Shown one piece after another: positions 1 to 51,025 of a DNA stretch of 51,099 nt (position 1 is the stretch's first letter; every line of letters starts with the position of its first letter). The position numbers and the translations under genes were made by a program. This stretch comes from a phage. The stretch lies in sequence record NC_129764.1; one strand, given 5' to 3'. Under the pieces are notes generated by a model that was given only the letters and a program-made list of their open reading frames with translations, searched no databases and was not told where the DNA came from.

Positions 1-530
1 ATTGCATGGTGTGCAACAGTTGGTTGATTTGTTGCTGAGATTGCAATGATTGTGAGAGGGGGGATTTAGTGTTACCCGGTTCGCCTGGTGGTCATCTCCA
101 TTTTTAGCAAAACGTGCTATTCGTCTATGCGGTAGTTGTAATTGTCGTAATAGTTGTATACCATTAGGGGTGTTACAAAATGGCCCGAGAATCGATAGGC
201 CTATAGATAATAAAATATCTATATATAATAATAAGATAGATAATATATATTTATTTATTTATTATATTATATATTGGTATGTAATCGGCGTAATAGGTGC
301 AACCGCATTTTTTGAGGGTGGCATATATTTCGTGATGCATAGTATAAAAAACATACTATTCCGCGCGCATAAATAGATGTTCTTACTTTTATAGAAAAAG
401 TCGGTTGCATCGGTTGCACTGGTTACAAAAATAAAAAATGCAGCTATAGACATTGACGCGCCTGACGTTGTAGCTGTAACATGTTTTTCGAAGTTGAAAG
501 TTACACCCATAGACAACGAGGTATAGACAA
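1..530. promoter_or_regulatory. AT-rich non-coding control region with GTTACA/GTTGCA-type repeats and (TATAGATAATA)-like tracts
   Basis: No convincing ORF; AT tracts 200-290; repeated gttaca/gttgca/tgtaac words; shares GGTGTTACAAAAT (169-181) with the region at 30868-30881. Confidence 0.5.
103..121 (-). promoter_or_regulatory. dyad motif copy (rc reads AATAGCACGTTTTGCTAAA), minus orientation
   Basis: Direct sequence match to the recurrent motif; points toward window start. Confidence 0.5.
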
Positions 531-1108: not shown

Positions 1109-1348
1109 ATGAGCAAAATTAAGCATGACGACCTGAAAGGTGTATTAATGCAACTCAATCCAGGTCAAGCATTCCAACTTAACCCCGAGACGTTCGGATT
1201 CAATGGGAGCTATCGCACAACATTTGAGTTCATCCGGTATGTAAAGAGGGAGTTAGGAATTGATGTTATTCAAGCTGGGCTTATTAATGGCATTCAAACA
1301 TTCATATTTAAGCCAAGCGAGATTCGTTGCCTCACTCTGATGAAATAG
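1109..1348 (+). CDS. hypothetical protein (79 aa)
   Basis: ORF with RBS ggagaaataatcATG; stop TAG lies inside the dyad motif. Confidence 0.55.
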   Translation: MSKIKHDDLKGVLMQLNPGQAFQLNPETFGFNGSYRTTFEFIRYVKRELGIDVIQAGLINGIQTFIFKPSEIRCLTLMK

Positions 1349-1364
1349 CACTTTTTGTTAAAGC
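1344..1364 (+). promoter_or_regulatory. dyad motif copy AATAGCACTTTTTGTTAAAGC
   Basis: Sequence match; intergenic. Confidence 0.6.
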
Positions 1365-1617: not shown

Positions 1618-2088
1618 ATGGCGACAATTACCGTATTCCTGGCTAAAGATGAGATTGACGATGAAATGTCATTCTTCGCATTCGAGCACAAAACCGGATC
1701 GCACTGGCACACTTACAGCCATTACACGGTTATCCCAATCGAAGCGTACGACGGCGAACTGCTCACTGATAAACTTAGTAATTTCATTGAAGATGTTAAT
1801 GCTAGCGGTGGCTGCGAGTGGAAAGAAGATCACGAAGTTATTCGAATGCTTGAGATGGTCAACCCGGTCCGTCTTGAGTCGTTCGAGCTTGATGCTGATG
1901 TGTCTATTAAGGTGAGAAAGTCTGGTGAGTTATTGCCAGGGATGCGCGTGCTGACTGGTTACTCGGGCCGTAAAGTGTGGCGCACTGTGTCGAAGGTTCG
2001 CCAGCGTTCAGAAACATGCTACAGCATATTCTTTGAGGATGGCTGGAATGTGATGGCTGGTAGCGAAGTAAAATATCTCACCAAATAG
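1618..2088 (+). CDS. hypothetical protein (156 aa)
   Basis: ORF; stop TAG is part of the motif at 2084. Confidence 0.6.
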   Translation: MATITVFLAKDEIDDEMSFFAFEHKTGSHWHTYSHYTVIPIEAYDGELLTDKLSNFIEDVNASGGCEWKEDHEVIRMLEMVNPVRLESFELDADVSIKVRKSGELLPGMRVLTGYSGRKVWRTVSKVRQRSETCYSIFFEDGWNVMAGSEVKYLTK

Positions 2089-2104
2089 CACGAATTGTTA
2101 AAAC
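2084..2104 (+). promoter_or_regulatory. dyad motif copy AATAGCACGAATTGTTAAAAC
   Basis: Sequence match; followed by hairpin ggggta-N12-tacccc containing TGATATAGT. Confidence 0.65.
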
Positions 2105-2166
2105 CGGATCGGGGTATCTTGATATAGTTACCCCATCGAAAAGAGATACCAATCAGAGGATTCACC

Positions 2167-2917: not shown

Positions 2918-3109
2918 ATGGCTGATTTTATGCACCAAATGATTGCAGTATTCAAAGGCAGCGATGACCAGGAGGTGAAAGAGTGCTTTACTGTCGATAA
3001 GCCTTATAACGCATCGCTAACCAGCTTCGGGAATATCTCATTGCTTGATGATAATGGCGACCCCTGGATATTCGACGAAGATACTGATTGCTTCGAAATT
3101 AAAGAATAG
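2918..3109 (+). CDS. small acidic protein (63 aa)
   Basis: ORF, RBS ggatgttaaaATG; stop TAG in motif. Confidence 0.5.
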   Translation: MADFMHQMIAVFKGSDDQEVKECFTVDKPYNASLTSFGNISLLDDNGDPWIFDEDTDCFEIKE

Positions 3110-3125
3110 CACTTTTTGTTAAAAC
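3105..3125 (+). promoter_or_regulatory. dyad motif copy AATAGCACTTTTTGTTAAAAC
   Basis: Sequence match; downstream hairpin ggggtt-N-aacccc with TATAGT. Confidence 0.65.
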
Positions 3126-3180
3126 TAAATATAGGGGTTGCGCTATAGTAACCCCATCGACAACGAACGAGGACGATAGC

Positions 3181-3669
3181 ATGAAAATCAAATTACTTTG
3201 CACTGGCGGTTACAAGGGCTTTACCCGAGATCTGGAAGCAGACCCTATCGTGGTTGATGCGGTGAAGTGTGATTCCAGTACCGGAGGCTACCGCGTTAAG
3301 GTTGACGATCTGGTTAAAGCTGGCGTGTACGATCTGGACTATGGACTTTCGGTTAGCCCTGTATTTGGTCCGGCTGACTTTAACGAGAATGACGGAACGA
3401 TGTTCTTCTTCGAATGGGAAGTCCAAGCAAATCCTAAGCCGCGCAAGGTTCGACTTCTCAGTAATGGCGGCTACCCGCTGCGACAAGGCTATGAGAACCG
3501 CACATTCCCAGTTATCGTGGACTTTGAAGAAATTACTAGCAATCTGGCATACGTTAACGATGAGCAGTTGCGAGCCGTTGGATTTGTCGGCGGGATGAAT
3601 AAAGAGCCGCTATGCTTCTTCCATTGTAAAGCCGAGCCGTTCGATATTGAGTGCGAGTTAGTATACTAA
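3181..3669 (+). CDS. hypothetical protein (162 aa)
   Basis: ORF, RBS gaggacgatagcATG. Confidence 0.6.
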   Translation: MKIKLLCTGGYKGFTRDLEADPIVVDAVKCDSSTGGYRVKVDDLVKAGVYDLDYGLSVSPVFGPADFNENDGTMFFFEWEVQANPKPRKVRLLSNGGYPLRQGYENRTFPVIVDFEEITSNLAYVNDEQLRAVGFVGGMNKEPLCFFHCKAEPFDIECELVY

Positions 3670-3686
3670 GCACGAATTGTTAAAAT
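3666..3686 (+). promoter_or_regulatory. dyad motif variant CTAAGCACGAATTGTTAAAAT
   Basis: Sequence match; followed 22 nt later by TGGTATAAT. Confidence 0.6.
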
Positions 3687-4226: not shown

Positions 4227-4375
4227 TGACTGCATGGGTTTTGATTATCTTAATGAGTACCGGGCCAGATCACGTATACATGGAAAGCCAACAATCATGC
4301 AACAAGGCACGGGAAGTTATCGCAGAAAATAAGCCGTTCGGATATGAAGTAAAAACTATGTGTGTTAAACGATAG
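4226..4375 (+). CDS. small protein (49 aa)
   Basis: TAATG overlap with upstream stop; hydrophobic N-terminus; stop TAG in motif; below track cutoff. Confidence 0.3.
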   Translation: MTAWVLIILMSTGPDHVYMESQQSCNKAREVIAENKPFGYEVKTMCVKR

Positions 4376-4390
4376 CACGAATTGCTAAAC
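4372..4390 (+). promoter_or_regulatory. dyad motif copy ATAGCACGAATTGCTAAAC
   Basis: Sequence match; downstream hairpin aaggcca-tttgatatag-tggcctt. Confidence 0.65.
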
Positions 4391-4455
4391 CTTCCGCAAG
4401 GCCATTTGATATAGTGGCCTTATTGAAGCAGAGCAACCAATCAGAGGAATCGGCT

Positions 4456-5546: not shown

Positions 5547-5765
5547 ATGGCTACTATCATGACAGCAGAAGATGCAGCGCGTGACGCAGTGGAAGGAATG
5601 CGCCCAAATACCTCCAGAATCGCACACTACTACAAATCTGAGGTGTCGGCAGTGCAATTGGTCCACGAAATTTTAAGGCTCCCACAAGTCGATTCAGCGC
5701 GCGTGGTGACGTGCTTAAAAAATTATTTTTGCATCACTATTAAAACGAATAGCACGAATTGCTAA
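5547..5765 (+). CDS. hypothetical protein (72 aa)
   Basis: ORF; overlaps an alternative 36-aa ORF at 5452-5562. Confidence 0.35.
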   Translation: MATIMTAEDAARDAVEGMRPNTSRIAHYYKSEVSAVQLVHEILRLPQVDSARVVTCLKNYFCITIKTNSTNC

Positions 5766-5768
5766 AAC
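5748..5768 (+). promoter_or_regulatory. dyad motif copy AATAGCACGAATTGCTAAAAC
   Basis: Sequence match; hairpin ggggaatgcgctatgattcccc downstream. Confidence 0.65.
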
Positions 5769-5822: not shown

Positions 5823-6269
5823 ATGAAACATTTGATTTGCATTGAAACGCCTAACGATGAATACACCCTGCACGGCATCGGAATGTTCAAAGGTCACTAC
5901 ATGACAGCAAGTATTTATGATGCGCGTCGCGGCGATGGCGATCTGATGATTACCTCAAAAGAGGTTAATCCGTACATCATGCAGAATCTTGGAAATAACG
6001 AATATATGGCCTACGGCTGCAACGCGGTGTATAAGCATATCAAGATCCGCAAGCGTGTCGTGCGAGCATTCAAGAAAATTGCAATGAAACACTGGAAGAT
6101 GAGCAAGAAAGATGCCGGACATTGGGCGCGTAACGTTGCAGATTCATACTTCTACCGTAACGGCGAGTCATGCTACTTCCTGATCGATGAAATGATGGAA
6201 AATTATAGCGGCACATTCTGCCAAAGTGATTTTGACGCCTGGGCTGACTACGAGGTCGATTGCTGGTAA
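5823..6269 (+). CDS. hypothetical protein (148 aa)
   Basis: ATG with RBS gagggaacactcATG. Confidence 0.55.
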   Translation: MKHLICIETPNDEYTLHGIGMFKGHYMTASIYDARRGDGDLMITSKEVNPYIMQNLGNNEYMAYGCNAVYKHIKIRKRVVRAFKKIAMKHWKMSKKDAGHWARNVADSYFYRNGESCYFLIDEMMENYSGTFCQSDFDAWADYEVDCW

Positions 6270-6288
6270 TAGCACGAATTGCTAAAAC
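6268..6288 (+). promoter_or_regulatory. dyad motif copy AATAGCACGAATTGCTAAAAC
   Basis: Sequence match; hairpin aagggca-tttgttagaa-tgccctt. Confidence 0.65.
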
Positions 6289-6994: not shown

Positions 6995-7567
6995 ATGAAA
7001 ACAGCTATCATTTTAAACGGCGCGCCGGGCGCAGGCAAAGACACTATCGGATGCATCCTGGCCGACACTTACGATCACGTAGCGCTACGCAGCTTCAAGG
7101 CGCCAATGTTTGAGATTGCCCGAGCAATATTGGGTGAGACTAATTTCGAATACTTCATGTTCTTGTATGAGGACCGTCGATATAAAGAAGAGCCAGCATC
7201 AATCCTGAACGGTAAAAGCCCGCGCCAGTTTATGATCTGGATTAGCGAGGAGGTCATCAAGCCGCAGTTCGGAAATCGCTTCTTCGGTATGCGAGCGGAA
7301 AGCAAGGTGAAAGAGTCTCACTCCCTTTCGGTATTTACTGACGGTGGATTCAAAGACGAGATCTTGCAGATGATTGAAGGTGATATCCAGGTAAAGCTAT
7401 GTCGAATCCATCGCAACGGTTGCAACTTTGACAACGACAGCCGCGACTATATCTATCTTGACGATATGATCGGGGTCAACGGTTATCAGGAATGTGACTT
7501 CTTTTCTGTCGAAGGCCATCCAGAAATTACCGCCCAGCACATAGCCGCCACGTTCATCAACAAATAG
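6995..7567 (+). CDS. P-loop kinase (190 aa), possibly polynucleotide or nucleotide kinase
   Basis: Walker A GAPGAGKDT at N-terminus. Confidence 0.6.
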   Translation: MKTAIILNGAPGAGKDTIGCILADTYDHVALRSFKAPMFEIARAILGETNFEYFMFLYEDRRYKEEPASILNGKSPRQFMIWISEEVIKPQFGNRFFGMRAESKVKESHSLSVFTDGGFKDEILQMIEGDIQVKLCRIHRNGCNFDNDSRDYIYLDDMIGVNGYQECDFFSVEGHPEITAQHIAATFINK

Positions 7568-7583
7568 CACGAATTGCTAAAAC
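7563..7583 (+). promoter_or_regulatory. dyad motif copy AATAGCACGAATTGCTAAAAC
   Basis: Sequence match; stop TAG embedded. Confidence 0.65.
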
Positions 7584-7639
7584 GTCGGTGGGGTGATTTG
7601 ATATAGTTACCTCATCGACAACGAAGAGAGAAAATCGAA

Positions 7640-9393: not shown

Positions 9394-9413
9394 AATAGCA
9401 CTAAATGTTAAAC
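9394..9413 (+). promoter_or_regulatory. dyad motif variant AATAGCACTAAATGTTAAAC
   Basis: Sequence match upstream of packaging genes. Confidence 0.55.
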
Positions 9414-9428
9414 AAAGAGGATTGATTT

Positions 9429-16082: not shown

Positions 16083-16101
16083 CACAAAAATACTTTGACG
16101 C

Positions 16102-16120
16102 TTTAACAAAAAGTGCTATT
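16102..16120 (-). promoter_or_regulatory. dyad motif copy, reversed (plus strand TTTAACAAAAAGTGCTATT)
   Basis: Sequence match; lies between TTGACG and TATTAT upstream of the capsid gene. Confidence 0.55.
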
Positions 16121-16126
16121 ATTGAA

Positions 16127-19826: not shown

Positions 19827-19866
19827 CATTTCTGTAAAATCATCGTATCAACTTTTCACTATTCTC

Positions 19867-19886
19867 TTTTAACAAAAAGTGCTATT
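19867..19886 (-). promoter_or_regulatory. dyad motif copy, reversed (plus strand TTTTAACAAAAAGTGCTATT)
   Basis: Sequence match directly abutting the RBS aaccaatcaggag of the tail chaperone gene. Confidence 0.55.
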
Positions 19887-32347: not shown

Positions 32348-32421
32348 ACGGCACAAATAGCTAAACAAATAATTAATGAGGTGTTATAATGCACCTCATA
32401 CACCAATCAGGAGAAGTTAAG

Positions 32422-35695: not shown

Positions 35696-35714
35696 AATAT
35701 AAACTCCTTAAGTA

Positions 35715-35734
35715 AATAGCACGAATTGCTAAAT
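35715..35734 (+). promoter_or_regulatory. dyad motif copy AATAGCACGAATTGCTAAAT (reads reversed relative to the tail fibre gene)
   Basis: Sequence match about 20 nt upstream of the tail fibre start; TTGCAA-N17-TAAAAT on minus strand just upstream. Confidence 0.55.
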
Positions 35735-35774
35735 ACAGATTTTATCATTGTGCTATGGGTCTTGCAACGTGCAA

Positions 35775-35796
35775 TAAAAAACCGCCAGAAGGCGGT
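35775..35796 (-). terminator. intrinsic terminator after primase gene
   Basis: accgccagaaggcggt stem with A6 on plus (T-run on minus). Confidence 0.65.
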
Positions 35797-36731
35797 TAGA
35801 GTAGGTCGCTTGCTGAGAATAATTTGGCTTGCATTCCTGAGCGGTATCCTCCCGGATTTGGGATGATTATCTTCAATTGTCGATCGTCTGCCATATACAA
35901 AGTCTCTTTGTCTGAAGGTTCGCACGCCACGCGCATCTCCCGATCCCCTTTGTATCTGTACGCAACCATTTCTAGATTCTCAGGAGTAAAGCAGGCCCAT
36001 ACCTCTTGCTTTGTGTGAAAGGAAATGTGCTGAGCATCAATCCAGTTCAGGCATAAGTAGATCGCCTTTTCTGTTTTACCAGTCACGGCAACCGAGCAAC
36101 TCGTGTATTTCTTCGCGTAAAATGACTCCCTTCCTTCATCATCAATAATCAAAATATTGCAAAACTCGTCATCAAGCCCATCCTCATGCACAAGTTGACA
36201 CGGGATAGTGTGAAATATGCTCTCCCCGCCATCTTCGCGGCGTTTTACACCAACGTCGAATGACTCAGTGGGTAGTGACTCAAACACGCTCAACGGCGTA
36301 TTTACACGCTTCTCTGTGCGCTCCATAACCTTCATCACCGCCTCATGTTCAGCCATCATGACATTGACACCTGACACCGGAGTCCTGCGTGCTTTCTTGT
36401 TTGCCTTAACAATGTATTCCTGAGGAACCTTTCCGAGAAATCTCCCCAGGATGTTTATACATTCACTGTACGGCATACCAGTTAATTTCATCAACCAACC
36501 GATCCCGGAGTCGTTGCCGCATGAGTTGCAGATCGCGCCTCCGTCACCGGGGGCATTAAGTTTATCCGTCCATCGAAAACGGTCTTTCCCACCGCAGTGA
36601 GGGCAAGGTTGGTGCTTCTTATTGAAAACCTCGTTCTGCAATCCGCATATGGACTGTAACGCCTCGCGCCACATCCCTTTCATGTAAGGCAAAACATCCT
36701 CTTTCTGAAACATCATAAACTCTTCGTTCAC
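35796..36731 (-). CDS. putative DNA primase with N-terminal zinc ribbon (311 aa)
   Basis: CPHCGG...CNSCG primase-type zinc ribbon pattern. Confidence 0.55.
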   Translation of the reverse strand: MNEEFMMFQKEDVLPYMKGMWREALQSICGLQNEVFNKKHQPCPHCGGKDRFRWTDKLNAPGDGGAICNSCGNDSGIGWLMKLTGMPYSECINILGRFLGKVPQEYIVKANKKARRTPVSGVNVMMAEHEAVMKVMERTEKRVNTPLSVFESLPTESFDVGVKRREDGGESIFHTIPCQLVHEDGLDDEFCNILIIDDEGRESFYAKKYTSCSVAVTGKTEKAIYLCLNWIDAQHISFHTKQEVWACFTPENLEMVAYRYKGDREMRVACEPSDKETLYMADDRQLKIIIPNPGGYRSGMQAKLFSASDLL

Positions 36732-36788
36732 TTCCAGATCTCCAAATAAAAAACGCGTAGAAGGATGTTAACCCGCTACGCGTCGTTT

Positions 36789-36809
36789 GTTTTAACTAAA
36801 AATGCTATT
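36789..36809 (-). promoter_or_regulatory. dyad motif variant (minus strand AATAGCATTTTTAGTTAAAAC)
   Basis: Sequence match; encodes the C-terminal NSIFS-stop of the upstream gene; followed on minus strand by hairpin acgcgtag/ctacgcgt plus T-run. Confidence 0.55.
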
Positions 36810-37244
36810 GGTCGTTCCGATATCTTCCTTCTTCACAACCCGCATGAATTTCTTGTTCTTGCATCGCTTCTCAAGGCACTTTCCGTTACCATCAAACTTG
36901 AGGTCGAATCTCAGCCATGCTGCGCGGTATCCTTTACACCCCTGTCGGCGGTAAGCGCGATGTGCAGCCTCAGCGCCTTGCCACGAAATCATGTTGCGTT
37001 CTTTCCAGCCTTGCACCGTCTGATTCGTTACTTTTAGTGCCTTTGCGCAGGCCGCAGGGCCACCATAATATTCGATAAGCGCATCAAGTCGTGCTCGCAA
37101 TCCGGCGCGTGTTTCTTCCTTATGAATATAGAACCCGCAGCGCTGTCGTGGCTTTTTGTCTTTACCGCGTCGAGTTCCGTTGTTACCATTGATGTGACGT
37201 TTATCGATTTCACCAGTTGACTCCGCGATGCGTTGAATACTCAT
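36792..37244 (-). CDS. putative DNA-binding protein with Cro/YdaS-like HTH (150 aa)
   Basis: ATG with RBS aggagaattaagATG; segment GGPAACAKALKVTNQTVQGWKERNMISWQGA resembles Cro/YdaS-type HTH. Confidence 0.5.
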   Translation of the reverse strand: MSIQRIAESTGEIDKRHINGNNGTRRGKDKKPRQRCGFYIHKEETRAGLRARLDALIEYYGGPAACAKALKVTNQTVQGWKERNMISWQGAEAAHRAYRRQGCKGYRAAWLRFDLKFDGNGKCLEKRCKNKKFMRVVKKEDIGTTNSIFS

Positions 37245-37256
37245 CTTAATTCTCCT

Positions 37257-37277
37257 ATAGCACTTTTTGCTAAAAAC
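37257..37277 (+). promoter_or_regulatory. dyad motif copy ATAGCACTTTTTGCTAAAAAC
   Basis: Sequence match at the divergent junction between the HTH gene and helicase. Confidence 0.6.
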
Positions 37278-37338
37278 GTTTACTGTATGCCGTGTATTAT
37301 ATCGTAAACGATACAACGATTCAAAGGATTAAATAGCC

Positions 37339-39357
37339 GTGACAATTAACATCAAAAAGCAAATCGCATTACTTGGCGAGGACTATATAAAACGCACTCA
37401 AGAACGATTCACTGTTGGTGAGGTAGTTCCGTATCCGTACCAGGTTGTTGCTTATGCTGAGATCGCAAAACGCCTATCAAATTATGAGCATCCATTCTTT
37501 GTTAAAGCGTCAGTATCGGCGGGTAAGACCATCATTTTTGCTATGGTTGCAAAGCAGTGTCAAAAAATGGGCTTGAAAATGCTCGTGCTGGCACGCCAGG
37601 GTGAGATTGTCGATCAGGATAGTGAAGAGATCGACAATTTCGGAGTGACTAACTCTATATTCTCAGCGTCACTTGGAATCAAGTCTTGCTACTTCCCGAT
37701 CGTGGTAGGCTCTGAGGGCACTGTTGCAAATGGTTTAAATAATGAGTTGGCTGATTTTGTCCCTCACGTAATCGGGATAGATGAATGTCACCAGGTGGAT
37801 TGGGAAGACCTTGCGCAAGCCATAGACGGAAAGGAAACAATGGAACAGATGCGGGGAGAGAAAGGGAAAATTATCATGGACGGTGATACTCCTCTGATTG
37901 GTAATGATGGAAAGCCTCTTCTTGGAACTAAGCGCAGTCAGTACACGATCGTAATCATGGAAATGATGCGACGCTGTAAAGAGGTTCACGGTCACGACCT
38001 TAGAATATTTGGTATGACTGGATCTGAATTTAGGGGTGTAGTTCCTATTCTTGTTGAGAATCCAAAGGCGTTAGGCTTCTGGCGTGAGCGCGTTACTGAT
38101 ATAGACACCAACTACCTTATTGAGTTTGGCTCAGTCGTTCCGACTATATTCGGCTCGACGGACGGAGTTCACTACGATCTTGATAAATTTAAGGCATCAA
38201 GCGAGGATGGGGTACAGGACTTCACAGAGAAAGATATGAAGGCAATGGAAGATGAGATCCTTCATGATAAATCTCTTACCCAGCGAATCATGCAAATGGT
38301 TGCCAAAAAGGCTGAAGAGCGTAACGCAGTTCTGATTACATGCGCCGGGGTGCGTCACTGCAAAGAGGCGGCGGCGGCACTACCACCAGGAAGCACATAT
38401 GCAATTATTACTGGCGACACAGACACTAAAACGCGCAAGAAGATTCTTGATGATGTGAGGGCCGGGAAAATTAAATATACCTTTCAGGTCATGGCGCTAA
38501 CTACTGGAGTTAACGTTCCAAATTGGGATTTTAGTGTAATACTTCGCAAGATAGGATCTCTTACCTTGCTGATTCAGCTTTTGGGTAGGGGTATGCGACT
38601 TCTTAAATCCTGGCAGGTTGCTGAAGGAATGGTTAAGCAAGATCATCTGGTATGGGATTTTGCTGGTACGATGGACGAGTTGGGGCAGCTTTATTTCGAT
38701 CCTATACTTGAGCAGGCTCAGTTCCAGAAGCGATTTGAGAACGGAAAAGACCCGAAAACGTGTCCGAAATGTGGTTGCGTAAATAGCTTCTATGCTCGCC
38801 GATGCGTTAACGTTATCGACGGTGAGCGCTGTGATCATTTCTGGACTTCTCAGATTTGCGAGGACCAGGTTGATGAGCGCACTGGGAAAATTCTTGTTAA
38901 AGGGTGCGGTGCCGAGAATGACGTTGTGGCCAGAGTCTGTCGCTGTTGCGATGTTTCTCTTGTTGATCCTAACCTTAAGTTATCCGGTAAGGCGTACACT
39001 AAGAATGACTGGTACGAGGTCAAGAATTTTGAGGTTACGTTAACCAAAAACCAAAAAGGCGTGATATACAAATACACGCTTATTAACGATGAAGGTGATG
39101 AGTTCAAAGCGTATGAAAAATTCTTCCCTGAGTCAGACTCTAAGATCTGCGGTACTCTATGGAAAACGAAAGGCGTACTTCCTCATGTGTCAGATCCTAA
39201 AATGCGTCGCTACTTTATCGGAATGAAGAATGCTATCAAGATCGTGCAATACTCACATCATATAGCGCATCCGGTACGCGTCACCCATAGACGCAACCAG
39301 AAGAAAGAAGATATTATTTCACGCAAAGACTTCGGTATGGAGGATATCCCGGAATGA
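37339..39357 (+). CDS. SF2 DNA helicase (672 aa), GTG start
   Basis: Walker A SAGKT, DECH box GIDECHQ, C-terminal Cys clusters. Confidence 0.8.
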   Translation: MTINIKKQIALLGEDYIKRTQERFTVGEVVPYPYQVVAYAEIAKRLSNYEHPFFVKASVSAGKTIIFAMVAKQCQKMGLKMLVLARQGEIVDQDSEEIDNFGVTNSIFSASLGIKSCYFPIVVGSEGTVANGLNNELADFVPHVIGIDECHQVDWEDLAQAIDGKETMEQMRGEKGKIIMDGDTPLIGNDGKPLLGTKRSQYTIVIMEMMRRCKEVHGHDLRIFGMTGSEFRGVVPILVENPKALGFWRERVTDIDTNYLIEFGSVVPTIFGSTDGVHYDLDKFKASSEDGVQDFTEKDMKAMEDEILHDKSLTQRIMQMVAKKAEERNAVLITCAGVRHCKEAAAALPPGSTYAIITGDTDTKTRKKILDDVRAGKIKYTFQVMALTTGVNVPNWDFSVILRKIGSLTLLIQLLGRGMRLLKSWQVAEGMVKQDHLVWDFAGTMDELGQLYFDPILEQAQFQKRFENGKDPKTCPKCGCVNSFYARRCVNVIDGERCDHFWTSQICEDQVDERTGKILVKGCGAENDVVARVCRCCDVSLVDPNLKLSGKAYTKNDWYEVKNFEVTLTKNQKGVIYKYTLINDEGDEFKAYEKFFPESDSKICGTLWKTKGVLPHVSDPKMRRYFIGMKNAIKIVQYSHHIAHPVRVTHRRNQKKEDIISRKDFGMEDIPE

Positions 39358-39770
39358 TTACAGACAAAGGCGATTACTTAGAGTTTTACGAGCGAGATCC
39401 TAGCGACACGAGAAAGGAGGACGCTCATCAAGTAGATTGCGTATCCTGGTTGAAATACAATTTTCCTCAGCTTCTATTTTGGCACACAGTTAATGAAGGT
39501 GAAAAAACAATAACGTCGGCGCTAAGGGATGAACAGTCTGGATTACTCAAAGGTGTGTCAGACTTTGTTATTCTGATTGGTATAAACTCACGCTACCCGT
39601 TTGCAGCTATCGAACTAAAGAGGGTTAATAAGTCCGGCAAAGGAAAGGCATCACCAGTCAGCGATAAGCAAAGGGAGTTTCTCAAAAAGGTTCGTGATCG
39701 CGGAGGATTCTCTGCCGTCGCATACGGATTTGAGCAATTCAAGCTGGCAATATACGATTTAACGAAATAG
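39354..39770 (+). CDS. VRR-NUC domain nuclease (138 aa)
   Basis: GVSDFVIL ... AIELKR ... SDKQREFL pattern typical of VRR-NUC. Confidence 0.6.
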   Translation: MITDKGDYLEFYERDPSDTRKEDAHQVDCVSWLKYNFPQLLFWHTVNEGEKTITSALRDEQSGLLKGVSDFVILIGINSRYPFAAIELKRVNKSGKGKASPVSDKQREFLKKVRDRGGFSAVAYGFEQFKLAIYDLTK

Positions 39771-39786
39771 CACTTTTTGTTAAAAC
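39766..39786 (+). promoter_or_regulatory. dyad motif copy AATAGCACTTTTTGTTAAAAC
   Basis: Sequence match; stop TAG embedded; hairpin tgccggaatggaatctggca downstream. Confidence 0.65.
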
Positions 39787-40551: not shown

Positions 40552-40799
40552 TGAGCGAAAAAATGGTTCCTGTTAAATTAACTGATCAAGGGTTATGGCT
40601 TCTTTATCGCGCTACGTGCTGCGAAATTATGGAGCGAAACGGATTAACTCAAGATGTTATTGGTTGCGATTTATGGGAGTTTACAAGTTCTCTTGATATG
40701 TCGTTCGATGAGATAAAGAATAAACATATCGAGCATTGGCCTTCAATCATTCAGAAAGACGTAGAAGAACTTAAATCCGACACGATCTTACAGCACTAA
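40548..40799 (+). CDS. hypothetical protein (83 aa)
   Basis: ATGA overlap with methylase gene. Confidence 0.5.
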   Translation: MMSEKMVPVKLTDQGLWLLYRATCCEIMERNGLTQDVIGCDLWEFTSSLDMSFDEIKNKHIEHWPSIIQKDVEELKSDTILQH

Positions 40800-40809
40800 T
40801 TGCTAAAAC
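40791..40809 (+). promoter_or_regulatory. dyad motif variant CAGCACTAATTGCTAAAAC
   Basis: Sequence match; hairpin acccggcgaaagtcgggt followed by TATAGT. Confidence 0.55.
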
Positions 40810-40865: not shown

Positions 40866-41075
40866 ATGGCCCGCATTAACGCAAACTTTTTCAATATCGC
40901 TCAGCAGTCTGCAAAAATGGCTGTTCATATCACTGACAAGCAAGGCGGCAATTTTGATTGGGATATTGCTATGAACTTCCTTAAAATGGCTTACTATCGC
41001 TGCTCAGTCAAAGATGTTGAGTATTTTATTGAAAGCGTGGAGAAATTAACCAATGTTGATAAAAAAACAAGGTAA
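40866..41075 (+). CDS. hypothetical protein (69 aa)
   Basis: ATG with RBS gaggaataagaatATG. Confidence 0.5.
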   Translation: MARINANFFNIAQQSAKMAVHITDKQGGNFDWDIAMNFLKMAYYRCSVKDVEYFIESVEKLTNVDKKTR

Positions 41076-41325
41076 ACGCGAGGTTTGGGAGCACGCGAAG
41101 GAGTGCGGGATCTCAGGTGATATAGCACTAATAGCCAAATATTTCGATATAAAGGATGTTAGCATTATCTCAAATGGCAAGATTTCATTTATGGAAGATA
41201 TGCCGAGAAAAATGCATAGAGTGCCAGCCACCCCATCACTTGAATTTTATCGTGAAGAAGGAAAGAGAATTGAGAGAGAACGAAAAACAGCAAAGAACAA
41301 TAAGTCTTCCAGGATTAAACATTAA
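41053..41325 (+). CDS. hypothetical protein (90 aa); possibly the 5' part of a frameshifted gene continuing to 41557
   Basis: ORF with RBS; an overlapping ORF in another frame (41156-41557) has a protein-like 3' half without a plausible start. Confidence 0.35.
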   Translation: MLIKKQGKREVWEHAKECGISGDIALIAKYFDIKDVSIISNGKISFMEDMPRKMHRVPATPSLEFYREEGKRIERERKTAKNNKSSRIKH

Positions 41326-41635: not shown

Positions 41636-42787
41636 ATGTCACAAGCTAAAATCACTACCGAGCAACTTATCGAAGAGCGCATGAGCGGCCTTACACTTCG
41701 CGAGATTGCGGAAAAGTACGGTATGCACATCCGCACTGTTGAAGCTCGTCACGCAAAACTTGCAAAGGAAGGTCACTTCCACGGTAACGAGCATGTTGCT
41801 AAGAACGTACCGGAAGGATTCATGGTAAAAGGCACATCAACGATGATTCGCGGCGATGGGACCGAGGTAGTGCGATGGGTTAAGACCGATCAGGACCGTG
41901 AGAAGATTGCGGCAATGATGGAAGCAGCGCGTATTGCATTCTGTGAAGACTTGCCGCGAGCAAAACCAACTGAGCTACTCACATCGCAAGGGCTTACAAC
42001 CGCTATTGGCAAGCTGGCACTCTACCCGGTGTTCGATCTTCACATTGGCGCGCTTGCTCACAAGCATGAATGCGGAGAGAACTACTCTACAGACGTAGCG
42101 GAAAAAGTGCTGAATGACTTCTTTAACTACGCGATCGATATTGCCCCGAACGCAGAGAAGGCTGTTCTGTTAATCGGCGGCGACTTCCTTCACTCAGACG
42201 GTCTTGATGCTGTTACCCCGGCAAGCGGTCACGTTCTGGATCAGGATTCACGATATGCGAAATTGGTGCATGTGGCTATTCGATCGGTGCGACGAGCTAT
42301 CGACAAAATGCTGACTAAACACAAAGAGGTCGAAGTTCAGGTTATCGAAGGGAACCACGACCAGGCCGGAATGATTTGGCTACGCGCTGCAATGGCTGCA
42401 TACTATGAGGACGAGCCGCGAGTATTCGTTGACGTTAGTCCTATGATTCTGCATAAGACCCGCTGGGGAAATACCTTGTTGGGATACACTCACGGTCACA
42501 CGATGAAAAAGGCAGACACGCGACTTGCAGCGATGGCGGCAGACTTCCGTGCAGACTTCGGTGAAAGCAAATACGTGTATACTCACAGTGGACACTGGCA
42601 CCATCAAACAATCACAGAACACTCGTTAGGTATTGATGAGGTTCACGGGCAGTTAGGCGCGAAAGATGCATACGCCGCGCGAGGCGGGTGGCGCTCATAT
42701 CGCCAGGCGGCGGTAATCGTTTACGATAAACAGTTTGGTGAAATCGGTCGATTCATCTATCGTCCAGAAATGACAGGATCGCACTAA
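41636..42787 (+). CDS. metallophosphoesterase (calcineurin-like) with N-terminal HTH-like segment (383 aa)
   Basis: Motifs GDFLHSDG, GNHD, GH; N-terminal LTLREIAEKYGMHIRTVEA. Confidence 0.55.
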   Translation: MSQAKITTEQLIEERMSGLTLREIAEKYGMHIRTVEARHAKLAKEGHFHGNEHVAKNVPEGFMVKGTSTMIRGDGTEVVRWVKTDQDREKIAAMMEAARIAFCEDLPRAKPTELLTSQGLTTAIGKLALYPVFDLHIGALAHKHECGENYSTDVAEKVLNDFFNYAIDIAPNAEKAVLLIGGDFLHSDGLDAVTPASGHVLDQDSRYAKLVHVAIRSVRRAIDKMLTKHKEVEVQVIEGNHDQAGMIWLRAAMAAYYEDEPRVFVDVSPMILHKTRWGNTLLGYTHGHTMKKADTRLAAMAADFRADFGESKYVYTHSGHWHHQTITEHSLGIDEVHGQLGAKDAYAARGGWRSYRQAAVIVYDKQFGEIGRFIYRPEMTGSH

Positions 42788-44478: not shown

Positions 44479-44539
44479 AATGCTTTCCTTCGGGTCGCCT
44501 CGTTTCGATGAAACAAATATACCCGATACGAGATCGGGT

Positions 44540-44560
44540 GTTTTAACAAAAAGTGCTATT
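44540..44560 (-). promoter_or_regulatory. dyad motif copy (minus strand AATAGCACTTTTTGTTAAAAC)
   Basis: Sequence match; hairpin acccgatctcgtatcgggt followed by TATATT. Confidence 0.65.
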
Positions 44561-46648: not shown

Positions 46649-46702
46649 CACAATAAACTCCTTAGTTGACGGTGTGAATGATACACCGCCAATGTTACAC
46701 GC

Positions 46703-46722
46703 GTTTTGCAAAAAGTGCTATT
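46703..46722 (-). promoter_or_regulatory. dyad motif variant (minus strand AATAGCACTTTTTGCAAAAC)
   Basis: Sequence match about 55 nt upstream of the P-loop gene. Confidence 0.55.
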
Positions 46723-47200: not shown

Positions 47201-47223
47201 AATATTAACAAATCGTGCTATTT
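47201..47223 (-). promoter_or_regulatory. dyad motif variant (minus strand AAATAGCACGATTTGTTAATATT)
   Basis: Sequence match; hairpin aaggtca-tttgataaag-tgacctt. Confidence 0.6.
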
Positions 47224-47662: not shown

Positions 47663-47879
47663 TTTTAATTCCTTTGTTTCGTTTGGTGTGGGAGTAATAT
47701 ACCTTACTCCATATTTATTGTCTTTAGCAATTGGTGCTATCAGTATTCTGAAATTACTTTACACTCTTTGATTGTTCCACCTAGCACTACTTTCTGCATC
47801 ATTGCTTTTTGGTGGCTATCATAAACGCGAACATTTTTTACGCTGTTAAATTTGCCAGTATAGAAAGTGTGAATATAAA

Positions 47880-48781: not shown

Positions 48782-48838
48782 AACTCTTTCCTCGCTTGCT
48801 GTTGATGGGATGACTATACCAGCCATCCCGGATGAGCG

Positions 48839-48857
48839 TTTAGCAAAAAGTGCTATT
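48839..48857 (-). promoter_or_regulatory. dyad motif copy (minus strand AATAGCACTTTTTGCTAAA)
   Basis: Sequence match; hairpin gggatggctggtatagtcatccc. Confidence 0.65.
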
Positions 48858-49458: not shown

Positions 49459-49479
49459 GTTTTAACAAAAAGTGCTATT
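49459..49479 (-). promoter_or_regulatory. dyad motif copy (minus strand AATAGCACTTTTTGTTAAAAC)
   Basis: Sequence match. Confidence 0.65.
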
Positions 49480-49865: not shown

Positions 49866-49922
49866 TTTGTTTTTCCTCAATCTCGTTTCGATGAGGTAAT
49901 TATGCCAAATCACACCGATCGA

Positions 49923-49943
49923 GTTTTAACAAAAAGTGCTATT
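49923..49943 (-). promoter_or_regulatory. dyad motif copy (minus strand AATAGCACTTTTTGTTAAAAC)
   Basis: Sequence match; downstream hairpin and leader catcgaaacgag. Confidence 0.65.
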
Positions 49944-50938: not shown

Positions 50939-51006
50939 GTCGATTGCTCCTGATTGGTTGATGTGATGAATCATACCTAGTCGACATGGATGAGTCGTTA
51001 GCAAAA

Positions 51007-51025
51007 AATGCTATTCCAATAATTG
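51007..51025 (-). promoter_or_regulatory. dyad motif variant (minus strand AATAGCATTTTTTGCTAAC)
   Basis: Sequence match about 70 nt upstream of the 50938 start. Confidence 0.55.

What the first reader, a model, noticed from the sequence alone, without database searches (positions are those of the whole stretch)
36792..37244. Candidate cognate regulator: Cro/YdaS-like HTH protein adjacent to a motif copy at a divergent junction
The minus-strand gene 36792-37244 has a strong RBS and contains a segment (GGPAACAKALKVTNQTVQGWKERNMISWQGA) resembling Cro/YdaS-type helix-turn-helix domains. Its start lies about 15 bp from the motif copy at 37257-37277, which also precedes the divergent helicase gene, and its last codons are themselves encoded by another motif copy (36789-36809). 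That arrangement is typical of autoregulated transcription factors. Other candidates for the dyad-binding factor are the HTH-bearing N-terminus of the metallophosphoesterase (41636-42787) and the small protein at 41053-41325.
Basis: inference. Interest (0 to 1): 0.6.

Follow-up and report, generated by a model that had tools for sequence, protein, structure and literature searches.

The report
Cro-like protein beside phage marbox promoters
The gene is a real, conserved Cro-type DNA-binding protein of T1-like phages, but the repeated motif beside it is an oriented promoter element that matches the binding site of the host stress activators MarA/SoxS/Rob, so this protein is probably not what reads it.

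Summary
The window is a T1-like phage genome (Tunavirus, Drexlerviridae). Gene 36792-37244(-) is real: 150 aa, AGGAG ribosome-binding site, PHROG 2856, and a Cro-type helix-turn-helix fold.

The motif is not a symmetric operator. It is an oriented 20-mer, aATAGCACnnnTTGYTAAAAC, about 26 copies. In about 20 copies it lies exactly 18 nt upstream of a -10 hexamer, and there is no -35. It matches two published marbox consensuses: 24 hits against 0.95 expected, and 22 against 0.08. The 18-nt spacing equals that of the E. coli micF class II MarA/SoxS/Rob promoter, read directly.

The motif is invariant across the family. Helix 3 of the Cro-like protein has no invariant residue. The conserved parts are an N-terminal basic arm and a C-terminal RPDL segment.

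The gene has its own canonical sigma-70 promoter, conserved across genera. Its -10 overlaps the -10 of the helicase promoter.

Best reading (0.5): an early Cro-fold protein of unknown target, next to host-activator-type promoters. Rival (0.25): it binds the dyad core, activating from about -42 and repressing itself.

Evidence against the host reading: a Keio screen found no rob requirement, and one relative reportedly grows on Pseudomonas.

The parts
36792..37244 (-). CDS, 150 aa: Cro-fold HTH protein (PHROG 2856). Disordered but highly conserved basic N-arm (aa 5-33), HTH helices aa 63-70 and 74-83, C-terminal extension with an RPDL segment
37252..37256 (-). Shine-Dalgarno AGGAG of the regulator gene, 7 nt before the ATG
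   Evidence: read directly
37296..37324 (-). Canonical sigma-70 promoter of the regulator gene: -35 TTGAAT (37319-37324), 17-nt spacer, -10 TATAAT (37296-37301). Conserved in other genera and annotated independently as P57 in TLS and as a promoter in AKS96
37257..37276 (+). Motif copy ATAGCACTTTTTGCTAAAAA, forward for the helicase promoter. It also lies at about +14 to +33 of the predicted regulator transcript
37295..37300 (+). -10 hexamer TATTAT of the helicase promoter, 18 nt after the motif. It overlaps the regulator's -10 on the other strand
37277..37310 (.). Inverted repeat CGTTTACTGTAT / ATATCGTAAACG enclosing both -10 hexamers
37339..39357 (+). Helicase gene, divergent from the regulator
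36789..36808 (-). Degenerate motif copy ATAGCATTTTTAGTTAAAAC overlapping the regulator's last codons and stop codon; forward for the primase gene
   Evidence: the same layout is DR10 in TLS
36765..36770 (-). -10-like TAACAT, 18 nt after the degenerate motif, about 27 nt before the primase start
36744..36792 (-). Terminator-like hairpin (ACGCGTAG...CTACGCG followed by TTTTTTAT) after the regulator gene, enclosing that -10
35796..36731 (-). Primase gene, downstream of the regulator on the same strand
35716..35735 (+). Motif copy lying in reverse over the predicted start site of the tail-fibre promoter TTGCAA-17-TGaTAAAAT (35767..35739, minus strand)
16100..16119 (-). Motif copy in reverse inside the spacer of the canonical promoter TTGACG-16-TATTAT (16095-16122, plus strand) ahead of the major capsid gene
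   Evidence: the same placement occurs in Vc1 and Motto and is DR7 in TLS
1345..1364 (+). Motif copy, 18 nt before TATTAT
2085..2104 (+). Motif copy, 18 nt before TATAGT
3106..3125 (+). Motif copy, 18 nt before TATAGT
3667..3686 (+). Motif copy (TAAGCAC...), 18 nt before TATAAT
4372..4391 (+). Motif copy, 18 nt before TATAGT
5749..5768 (+). Motif copy, 18 nt before TATGAT
6269..6288 (+). Motif copy, 18 nt before TAGAAT (the same -10 hexamer as micF)
7564..7583 (+). Motif copy, 18 nt before TATAGT
9395..9414 (+). Motif copy 15 nt before the small-terminase start codon; no -10 at 18 nt
19866..19885 (-). Motif copy in reverse orientation within the plus-strand tail gene cluster
39767..39786 (+). 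Motif copy, 18 nt before CATTAT
40790..40809 (+). Motif copy (ACAGCAC...), 18 nt before TATAGT
44540..44559 (-). Motif copy, 18 nt before TATATT
46702..46721 (-). Motif copy, 18 nt before TATCAT
47202..47221 (-). Motif copy, 18 nt before TAAAGT
47721..47740 (-). Motif copy, 19 nt before TATATT
48837..48856 (-). Motif copy, 18 nt before TATAGT
49459..49478 (-). Motif copy, 18 nt before TATAAC
49923..49942 (-). Motif copy, 18 nt before CATAAT
50995..51014 (-). Degenerate motif copy, 19 nt before TATGAT
101..120 (-). Motif copy ATAGCACGTTTTGCTAAAAA. It shares 14 contiguous nt with the E. coli mar marbox. No -10 at 18 nt

Best explanation
The gene encodes an early, family-specific DNA-binding protein with a Cro-type HTH. 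Host RNA polymerase transcribes it from its own canonical sigma-70 promoter.

The motif copies around it are promoter elements of the neighbouring helicase and primase genes. They are not a symmetric operator dedicated to this protein.

Each forward copy is a 20-bp marbox-type site placed as in class II MarA/SoxS/Rob promoters. Position 1 is at about -50 and position 20 at about -31. An 18-nt gap separates it from an often extended -10, and there is no -35. The most likely direct reader is therefore a host MarA/SoxS/Rob(/RamA)-type activator together with RNA polymerase. Rob is constitutive and abundant.

At the divergent junction the two -10 hexamers overlap, so polymerase recruited to the helicase promoter excludes the regulator's promoter.

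The DNA target of the Cro-like protein is unknown. I infer that it acts locally at this junction, or modulates the system through its conserved N-arm and RPDL surface, and that its helix 3 does not read the motif.

Shown here: the sequence match, the geometry, the conservation patterns and the fold. Inferred: who binds, and the direction of regulation.
For: Match to published marbox definitions, derived independently of this phage:
- GCANNWWNTGNNAAA (PMC12052159) has 24 hits against 0.95 in shuffles.
- AYNGCACNNWNNRYYAAA, recalled from Martin et al. 1999 and not checked in a held paper, has 22 hits against 0.08.
- Copy 101-120 shares 14 contiguous nt with the mar site. The consensus shares 14-15 of 20 positions with the micF site (sequences from PMC8279559).

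Orientation and spacing:
- About 20 of 26 window copies have a -10 exactly 18 nt (two at 19 nt) after the 20-mer, in the direction of the downstream gene.
- In 254 unique contexts from viral contigs, 225 have the -10 at 18 nt, and G at -14 occurs in 86%.
- E. coli K-12 micF, read directly, is ACAGCACTGAATGTCAAAAC, then 18 nt, then TAGAAT, then 7 nt, then +1.
- Class II means a forward marbox overlapping the -35, centred near -41.5. Rob contacts the G and A of GCAC at -47 and -45.

Asymmetry: the conserved C7, T11 and A16-A18 have no dyad partners. Position 14 varies C/T, as the marbox RYY allows.

Motif invariance against helix 3 variability:
- The same motif and spacing occur in Vc1, Motto, L129 and L130.
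- Helix 3 has entropy 1.54 bits against 0.51 for the N-arm. It has no invariant residue in alignment A2.

Other points:
- No AraC-type protein is encoded in the window.
- Sigma-70 promoters are not enriched, 34 against 36 in shuffles. TLS has only three.
- Rob is constitutive and abundant.
- Hosts named in the 824 phage records that hold the gene are almost all Enterobacterales.
Against: - No binding data exist for any candidate.
- A Keio screen of the T1-like phage LL5 found no requirement for rob, marA or soxS (PMC7229145). Redundancy among the three, and basal activity of extended -10 promoters, could hide a partial effect.
- Phage Motto carries 17 motif promoters. It is reported to grow on P. 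aeruginosa and not on E. coli (PMC10978715). To my knowledge P. aeruginosa has no MarA/SoxS/Rob orthologues. Vc1 is labelled a Vibrio phage. T1-like phages are notorious laboratory contaminants, so these host labels may not apply to the sequenced genomes.
- The regulator is one of very few genes with a motif-independent canonical promoter. That is what one expects of a phage-encoded activator made first.
- TAGCA-N5-TGCTA is the only over-represented 5-N-5 dyad in the genome. Its centre, at about -42, is where lambda cI activates PRM (own knowledge).
- The conserved N-arm could contribute to DNA recognition independently of helix 3.
Confidence: 0.5

Rival explanations
1. The Cro-like protein, as a dimer, binds the dyad core TAGCA-N5-TGCTA. 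Made first from its canonical promoter, it activates about 20 motif promoters from a site centred near -42, as lambda cI does at OR2 for PRM. It represses its own promoter and the late promoters that carry a reversed copy.
For: - Cro fold.
- It is the only profile-recognised regulator among the 20 other ORFs scanned.
- Its own canonical promoter is conserved across genera and is one of only three in TLS.
- The motif lies between its -10 and its ribosome-binding site in all genera.
- TAGCA-N5-TGCTA is the only enriched dyad.
- The gene and the motif co-occur in every genome examined.
- No rob requirement was found for LL5, and Motto is reported on Pseudomonas.
Against: - Helix 3 has no invariant residue while the motif is invariant.
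- The conserved asymmetric positions and the AAAAC flank are not explained by a symmetric dimer.
- An arbitrary phage-specific site would match about 18-21 bits of marbox consensus, plus its orientation and spacing, only with very low probability.
Confidence: 0.25
2. The protein belongs to the replication module. It would be an origin-binding or adaptor protein working with the flanking primase and helicase. The motif copies at its ends are only the promoters of its neighbours.
For: - Strict synteny between primase and helicase in all genera.
- The conserved parts are the N-arm NGNNGTRRG and the RPDL segment, not the HTH reading helix. That fits a conserved protein partner.
- No origin or initiator is known for these phages (TLS paper).
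Against: - No iterons or other repeats lie in or near the gene.
- No similarity to known initiators or helicase loaders in Pfam, PHROGs or the PDB.
Confidence: 0.15
3. No activator reads the motif. It would be an RNA polymerase-contacting element, UP-like or a displaced -35-like TTGYTA, that boosts extended -10 promoters. The Cro-like protein would then be unrelated to it.
For: - The TLS authors proposed UP-element or enhancer roles.
- G at -14 occurs in 86% of sites.
- TTGYTA resembles TTGACA.
Against: - The TTGYTA to -10 distance is 22 nt, too long for sigma region 4 (established promoter geometry).
- The invariant GCAC block is not A/T-rich like UP elements.
- The marbox match would be left unexplained.
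Confidence: 0.1

Closest known systems
Class II MarA/SoxS/Rob promoters of E. coli (micF type)
   Same: - A 20-bp asymmetric site with an A-box GCAC and a B-box TG..AAA.
- Forward orientation.
- 18 nt to the -10 hexamer, with no usable -35.
- Sequence 14-16 of 20 identical to the micF and mar sites.
   Different: - About 20 near-identical, near-consensus copies in one 51-kb virulent phage, whereas host sites are few and degenerate.
- Extra invariant positions A3, T11 and T15.
- A shared downstream leader.
- Binding by host activators is not demonstrated.
All-alpha Cro proteins (P22 Cro, N15 Cro, Xfaso-1 Cro; Pfam P22_Cro and YdaS)
   Same: - The Q-W-x-x-R-G-x-I-[SP] signature after helix 3.
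- Encoded at a divergent promoter junction.
   Different: - 150 aa instead of about 60-70.
- A conserved 33-aa basic N-arm and a 40-aa C-terminal extension with RPDL.
- Found in a virulent phage with no repressor partner.
- Pfam scores below gathering for this sequence.
- Operator unknown.
Lambda cI at OR2 activating PRM (own knowledge)
   Same: An HTH dimer site centred at about -42 can activate by touching sigma region 4. The same protein represses a divergent promoter.
   Different: Here the site is asymmetric and repeated about 25 times genome-wide. There is no evidence that the protein is a dimer or binds the site.
T4 MotA and the mot box of middle promoters (own knowledge)
   Same: A virulent phage replaces the -35 of many promoters with a phage-specific box read by an early protein.
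   Different: The mot box is centred at -30, and MotA has a different fold and needs AsiA. Here the box equals a host activator site.
The 21-nt direct repeats of phage TLS (PMC11447400)
   Same: The same element, aaATAGCACnnnTTGnTAAAA. [quoted passage not shown] DR10 and DR11 flank the TLS homologue gp57.
   Different: The paper proposed stoperators, enhancer sites or UP elements. It did not note the marbox match, the fixed 18-nt spacing to the -10, or any reader.

Membership tests
Cro/YdaS-type HTH proteins (Pfam PF14549, PF15943) | Profile HMM match at or above the gathering score | tested here: not met
   Scores of 24.4 against a 30.2 cut-off and 19.7 against 30. Several homologues carry precomputed PF14549 and PF15943 hits.
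Cro/YdaS-type HTH proteins (Pfam PF14549, PF15943) | All-alpha Cro fold containing a helix-turn-helix | tested here: met
   [not shown]
Cro/YdaS-type HTH proteins (Pfam PF14549, PF15943) | Dimer binding to a dyad-symmetric operator | not testable with these tools
   No multimer or protein-DNA prediction is available, and no experiment exists.
PHROG 2856 (Drexlerviridae 'transcriptional regulator') | Full-length profile match and conserved synteny | tested here: met
   E 2.7e-76 over aa 4-145. 824 phage records hold the gene. The helicase/regulator/primase order holds in 8 genera or contigs.
Marbox (MarA/SoxS/Rob binding site), for the DNA motif | Match to the asymmetric consensus (GCAnnWWnTGnnAAA; AYnGCACnnWnnRYYAAA) | tested here: met
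   24 and 22 exact matches against 0.95 and 0.08 expected.
Marbox (MarA/SoxS/Rob binding site), for the DNA motif | Class II geometry: forward orientation, overlapping the -35 position, same distance to the -10 as micF | tested here: met
   18 nt in about 20 of 26 window copies and in 225 of 254 contexts. micF also has 18 nt. Transcription start sites are predicted, not mapped.
Marbox (MarA/SoxS/Rob binding site), for the DNA motif | Bound and activated by MarA, SoxS or Rob | not testable with these tools
   Indirect evidence against a strict requirement: the LL5 Keio screen and the Motto host report.
Autoregulated transcription factor at a divergent junction | Its own binding site overlaps its own promoter or leader | tested here: inconclusive
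   The motif lies at about +14 to +33 of the predicted transcript in all genera. Whether the protein binds it is unknown, and helix 3 is not conserved.
AraC/XylS family (a phage-encoded MarA-like reader) | A protein with two AraC-type HTH motifs encoded in the window | tested here: not met
   phmmer with MarA and SoxS against all 561 six-frame ORFs gave a best E of 0.6.

The most novel reading that the evidence does not exclude
A whole family of virulent phages (Drexlerviridae) drives nearly all its early and middle promoters through the host's MarA/SoxS/Rob stress activators, using about 20 near-consensus class II marboxes per genome. Reversed copies sit over the canonical promoters of late genes (capsid, tail fibre) and of the Cro-like gene. 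Titration of a fixed activator pool by replicating phage DNA could then time the early-to-late switch. The Cro-like protein would be a phage-side modulator of this circuit.
Probability: 0.4. Interest if true: 0.8.

Novelty: new variant of a known kind. Interest (0 to 1): 0.6.

Why it matters
How T1-like phages are transcribed has stayed unresolved. Published annotation finds only about three sigma-70 promoters and an unexplained 21-nt repeat.

Reading the repeat as a class II marbox gives a concrete, testable model for about 20 promoters per genome in a large phage family. Members of that family are used in therapy and are feared as laboratory contaminants.

If host MarA/SoxS/Rob really drive these promoters, phage gene expression would be coupled to antibiotic, bile-salt and oxidative-stress responses. 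That bears on phage-antibiotic combinations and on phage behaviour in the gut.

For the gene itself, the result redirects effort. Its conserved N-arm and RPDL surface, not its HTH reading helix, are the parts to probe.

Tried and rejected
- Phage-encoded MarA-like protein: none found by phmmer over all six-frame ORFs.
- Other HTH regulators: Pfam and PHROGs on 20 other ORFs found none above threshold. The only lead is a sub-threshold sigma-region-4-like HTH on the phosphoesterase.
- A second operator for the Cro-like protein: no other enriched 5-N-5 dyad genome-wide, and no conserved repeat near the gene apart from the inverted repeat around the -10s.
- TTGYTA as a true -35: no consistent -10 lies 17 nt downstream. 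The real -10 is 22 nt away.
- RNA element: no Rfam match in the window.
- Co-occurrence test outside the family: the motif is multi-copy only in Drexlerviridae-sized contigs in IMG/VR, and the protein family is confined to the same phages. Co-occurrence therefore cannot discriminate between hypotheses.
- Covariation test: not possible, because the motif does not vary.
- Literature: no paper in the held library links the marbox or Rob with T1-like phages, and none reports a T1-like transcriptome.
- Solved structure: none exists for this family.

Full report
**What the window is.** Region 35700-39400 is 90-94.5% identical to many T1-like phages: Escherichia phage EF3-1, Shigella phages Sfin-1 and Shfl1, and others in Tunavirus and related Drexlerviridae genera. 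In those records the gene under study is annotated 'transcriptional regulator' or 'hypothetical protein', between a DNA primase and a helicase.

**Checking the observation.** The ORF 36792-37244(-) encodes 150 aa. AGGAG lies at 37252-37256, 7 nt before the ATG.
- Pfam gives sub-threshold hits to P22_Cro (E 2.5e-5) and YdaS (E 7.8e-4) over aa 54-83.
- PHROG 2856 matches at E 2.7e-76.
- An AlphaFold2 model built on 26 homologues has pLDDT >90 for aa 37-140. The N-terminus, aa 1-36, is disordered.
- A family profile finds the same Cro chains by sequence.
- The motif copy at 37257-37276 is 12 nt from the start codon and precedes the helicase gene.
- A degenerate copy at 36789-36808(-) encodes the last codons and the stop.

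The description is confirmed.

**What the motif is.** TAGCA-N5-TGCTA with at most one mismatch occurs 24 times, against 1.5 in shuffles. Aligning the copies shows an oriented, asymmetric 20-mer, aATAGCACnnnTTGYTAAAAC.
- In about 20 of 26 copies it is followed, after exactly 18 nt (two at 19 nt), by a -10-like hexamer such as TATAGT, TATTAT or TATAAT. About 25-35 nt further on is the start codon of a gene in the same direction.
- The TTGYTA inside the motif is 22 nt from the -10, so it cannot act as a -35. No hexamer at the proper -35 position resembles TTGACA.
- Across 254 unique site contexts from IMG/VR viral contigs, 225 have the -10 at 18 nt. G at -14 is present in 86%, which marks an extended -10.
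- Canonical sigma-70 promoters are not enriched in the window, 34 against 36 in shuffles.

[quoted passage not shown] It was said to occur also in T1, Rtp and Rogue1. The authors suggested stoperators, enhancer sites or UP elements, and found only three sigma-70-like promoters (PMC11447400).

**The marbox match.** The 20-mer satisfies marbox definitions that were derived independently of this phage.
- GCANNWWNTGNNAAA (PMC12052159) gives 24 exact hits against 0.95 expected.
- AYNGCACNNWNNRYYAAA gives 22 against 0.08. This second consensus is from my memory of Martin et al. 1999 and was not checked in a held paper.
- The crystallised sites are mar GATGCCACGTTTTGCTAAATC and micF ACAGCACTGAATGTCAAAAC (PMC8279559).
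- Window copy 101-120, ATAGCACGTTTTGCTAAAAA, shares 14 contiguous bases with mar.
- Class II marbox promoters carry the box in forward orientation, overlapping the -35 and centred near -41.5. In the Rob-micF activation complex, Rob contacts the G and A of GCAC at -47 and -45.
- I read the E. coli K-12 micF promoter directly. The 20-mer is followed by 18 nt, then TAGAAT, then 7 nt, then the first base of micF. The spacing is the same as in the phage promoters, and the promoter at 6269 even has the same -10 hexamer.
- The positions conserved in the phage motif are G4 C5 A6 C7 and T12 G13 A16-A18. These are the A-box and B-box. Position 14 varies C/T, as the marbox RYY allows. The conserved C7, T11 and A17-A18 have no dyad partners.

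Sequence, asymmetry, orientation and distance all fit a site for a monomeric protein with two HTH motifs. No such AraC-type protein is encoded in the window.

- Conservation is concentrated in the disordered basic N-arm, GEIDKR..NGNNGTRRGKDKKPRKR. Its entropy is 0.51 bits, and 15 of 29 positions are invariant.
- A second conserved stretch is a C-terminal A..R.DL segment.
- Helix 3, the presumed reading helix, has entropy 1.54 bits.
- In an alignment with the most distant members (33-44% identity) no residue of helix 3 is invariant. Examples are TNQTVQGWKER, CCVRLTNAYRL, KRHRVARWVEK and NPLEYREMIRI.
- Yet the genomes or contigs encoding those proteins (Vc1, Motto, L129, L130) carry the same 20-mer at the same 18-nt spacing. 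They also keep the copy between the regulator and the helicase.

An invariant site read by a freely varying reading helix is unlikely. If this protein reads the motif, the N-arm would have to do it.

- The gene has its own near-consensus promoter on the minus strand, TTGAAT-17-TATAAT at 37324..37296. It is one of about five intergenic sites scoring at least 10 of 12 in the whole window.
- A TATAAT at the same place is conserved in Webervirus, Rogunavirus, Kyungwonvirus, Hanrivervirus, Changchunvirus and a Yersinia phage.
- In TLS the three sigma-70 promoters are P01, P51 (exonuclease) and P57, which is this gene. DR11 and DR10 flank gp57 exactly as the two copies flank the gene here. Such a gene could be made first and then switch on the rest.
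- The reversed motif lies between its -10 and its ribosome-binding site, and the two divergent -10 hexamers overlap. Whatever binds the motif and recruits polymerase to the helicase promoter should therefore shut off the regulator's promoter.
- TAGCA-N5-TGCTA is the only enriched dyad in the genome.
- A Keio screen of the T1-like phage LL5 found only receptor, LPS, secB and ppiB genes, and not rob, marA or soxS.
- Motto, with 17 motif promoters, is reported to plate on P. aeruginosa and not on E. coli.

I weigh the last two as moderate. The three host activators are redundant, and extended -10 promoters have basal activity. T1-like phages are also classic contaminants, and three close relatives are labelled as infecting Vibrio, Pseudomonas and Citrobacter.

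**Wider pattern (inference).** Forward copies sit in the early and middle regions, 1.3-9.4 kb, 36.8-40.8 kb and 44.5-51 kb.
- In the late region a reversed copy fills the spacer of a canonical promoter, TTGACG-16-TATTAT at 16095-16122, ahead of the major capsid gene. The same placement occurs in Vc1 and Motto and is DR7 in TLS.
- Another reversed copy covers the predicted start site of the tail-fibre promoter, TTGCAA-17-TGaTAAAAT at 35767..35739.

One factor could therefore activate early promoters and hold late ones down. Replication would multiply the sites and could titrate it. This is speculation consistent with either reader.

**Verdict.**
- Observation: confirmed.
- Interpretation: partly supported. 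The Cro-type DNA-binding fold and an autoregulation-compatible layout are real. The cognate link is unlikely.
- Best explanation, 0.5: the motif is a class II marbox-type promoter element read by host MarA/SoxS/Rob-type activators, and the protein is an early Cro-fold factor whose target is unknown.
- Rival, 0.25: the protein binds the dyad core.
- Rival, 0.15: the protein is a replication-module partner.
- Rival, 0.1: the motif contacts polymerase without any activator.

The gene family and the repeat are known. The marbox reading and its exact micF geometry were not found in the literature I could search.

Noticed in passing
window 2105-2135, 3125-3150, 4391-4420, 36744-36792, 44505-44540 and most other motif promoters: GC-rich inverted repeats enclose or abut the -10 hexamer of most motif promoters. 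Each repeat has a different sequence, and several are followed by T-runs. They look like terminators for upstream transcripts, overlapped with the next promoter so that new transcripts start inside or after the hairpin.
   Followed up: partly
window, about 7 nt after each -10 (e.g. 2134-2146, 3155-3166, 7613-7624, 44500-44509, 49883-49892): Predicted transcripts from motif promoters share a conserved start, (C)AUCGAAACGA. In 254 IMG/VR contexts the consensus is CAtcgAAAcgAA. Function unknown.
   Followed up: partly
window 2148, 4436, 6333, 19888, 32402 (+); 47161, 49424, 50958 (-): At least 8 genes share a leader and ribosome-binding block, ACCAATCAG(A/G)GGA(G), 8-10 nt before the ATG.
   Followed up: partly
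window 1951(-), 9019(+), 10758(-), 17812(+), 22847(-), 30707(+), 31904(-), 46181(-), 48211(+): The exact 10-mer AACCAGTCAG occurs 9 times inside coding regions on both strands, against about 0.1 expected, with no flanking conservation. The 9-mer ACCAGTCAG occurs 7-8 times in Vc1 and Motto. Unexplained.
   Followed up: partly
window 16095-16122 (+) and 35739-35767 (-): The canonical sigma-70 promoters of the major capsid and tail-fibre genes each carry a reversed motif copy, over the spacer or over the start site. This is a repression-type geometry. The capsid case is conserved in Vc1 and Motto and is DR7 in TLS.
   Followed up: partly
window 41636-41815 (N-terminus of the 383-aa phrog_704 phosphoesterase): There are sub-threshold Sigma70_r4_2, HTH_28 and HTH_23 hits, E 5e-4 to 3e-3. 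Its helix 3, MHIRTVEARHAKL, keeps R33, E36, R38 and L42 invariant across the window, Vc1, Motto and L129. By the conservation criterion it is a better phage-encoded candidate reader than the Cro-like protein.
   Followed up: partly
window 36792-37244, aa 5-33 and 108-115 of the protein: The most conserved parts of the regulator family are a disordered basic arm, NGNNGTRRGxDKKxRKR, and an A-x3-R-x-D-L segment that reads ASFCRPDL in most members. The latter also occurs in short Cro-like relatives that lack the arm. This suggests a conserved partner other than a base-specific helix 3 contact.
   Followed up: partly
phage records MG0656xx ('Campylobacter phage'), NC_054898.2 (Vibrio phage Vc1), ON843697.1 (Pseudomonas phage Motto): T1-like genomes with the same gene and motif are deposited under non-enterobacterial host names. 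Some of these host labels may be wrong, which matters for any host-factor argument.
   Followed up: partly
window 32348-32366 and 41122-41140 (+): Two further sites match the longer marbox consensus but not the phage-specific consensus: ACGGCACAAATAGCTAAAC, just before the erf-like gene and next to a TAAACA-17-TATAAT promoter, and ATAGCACTAATAGCCAAAT.
   Followed up: no
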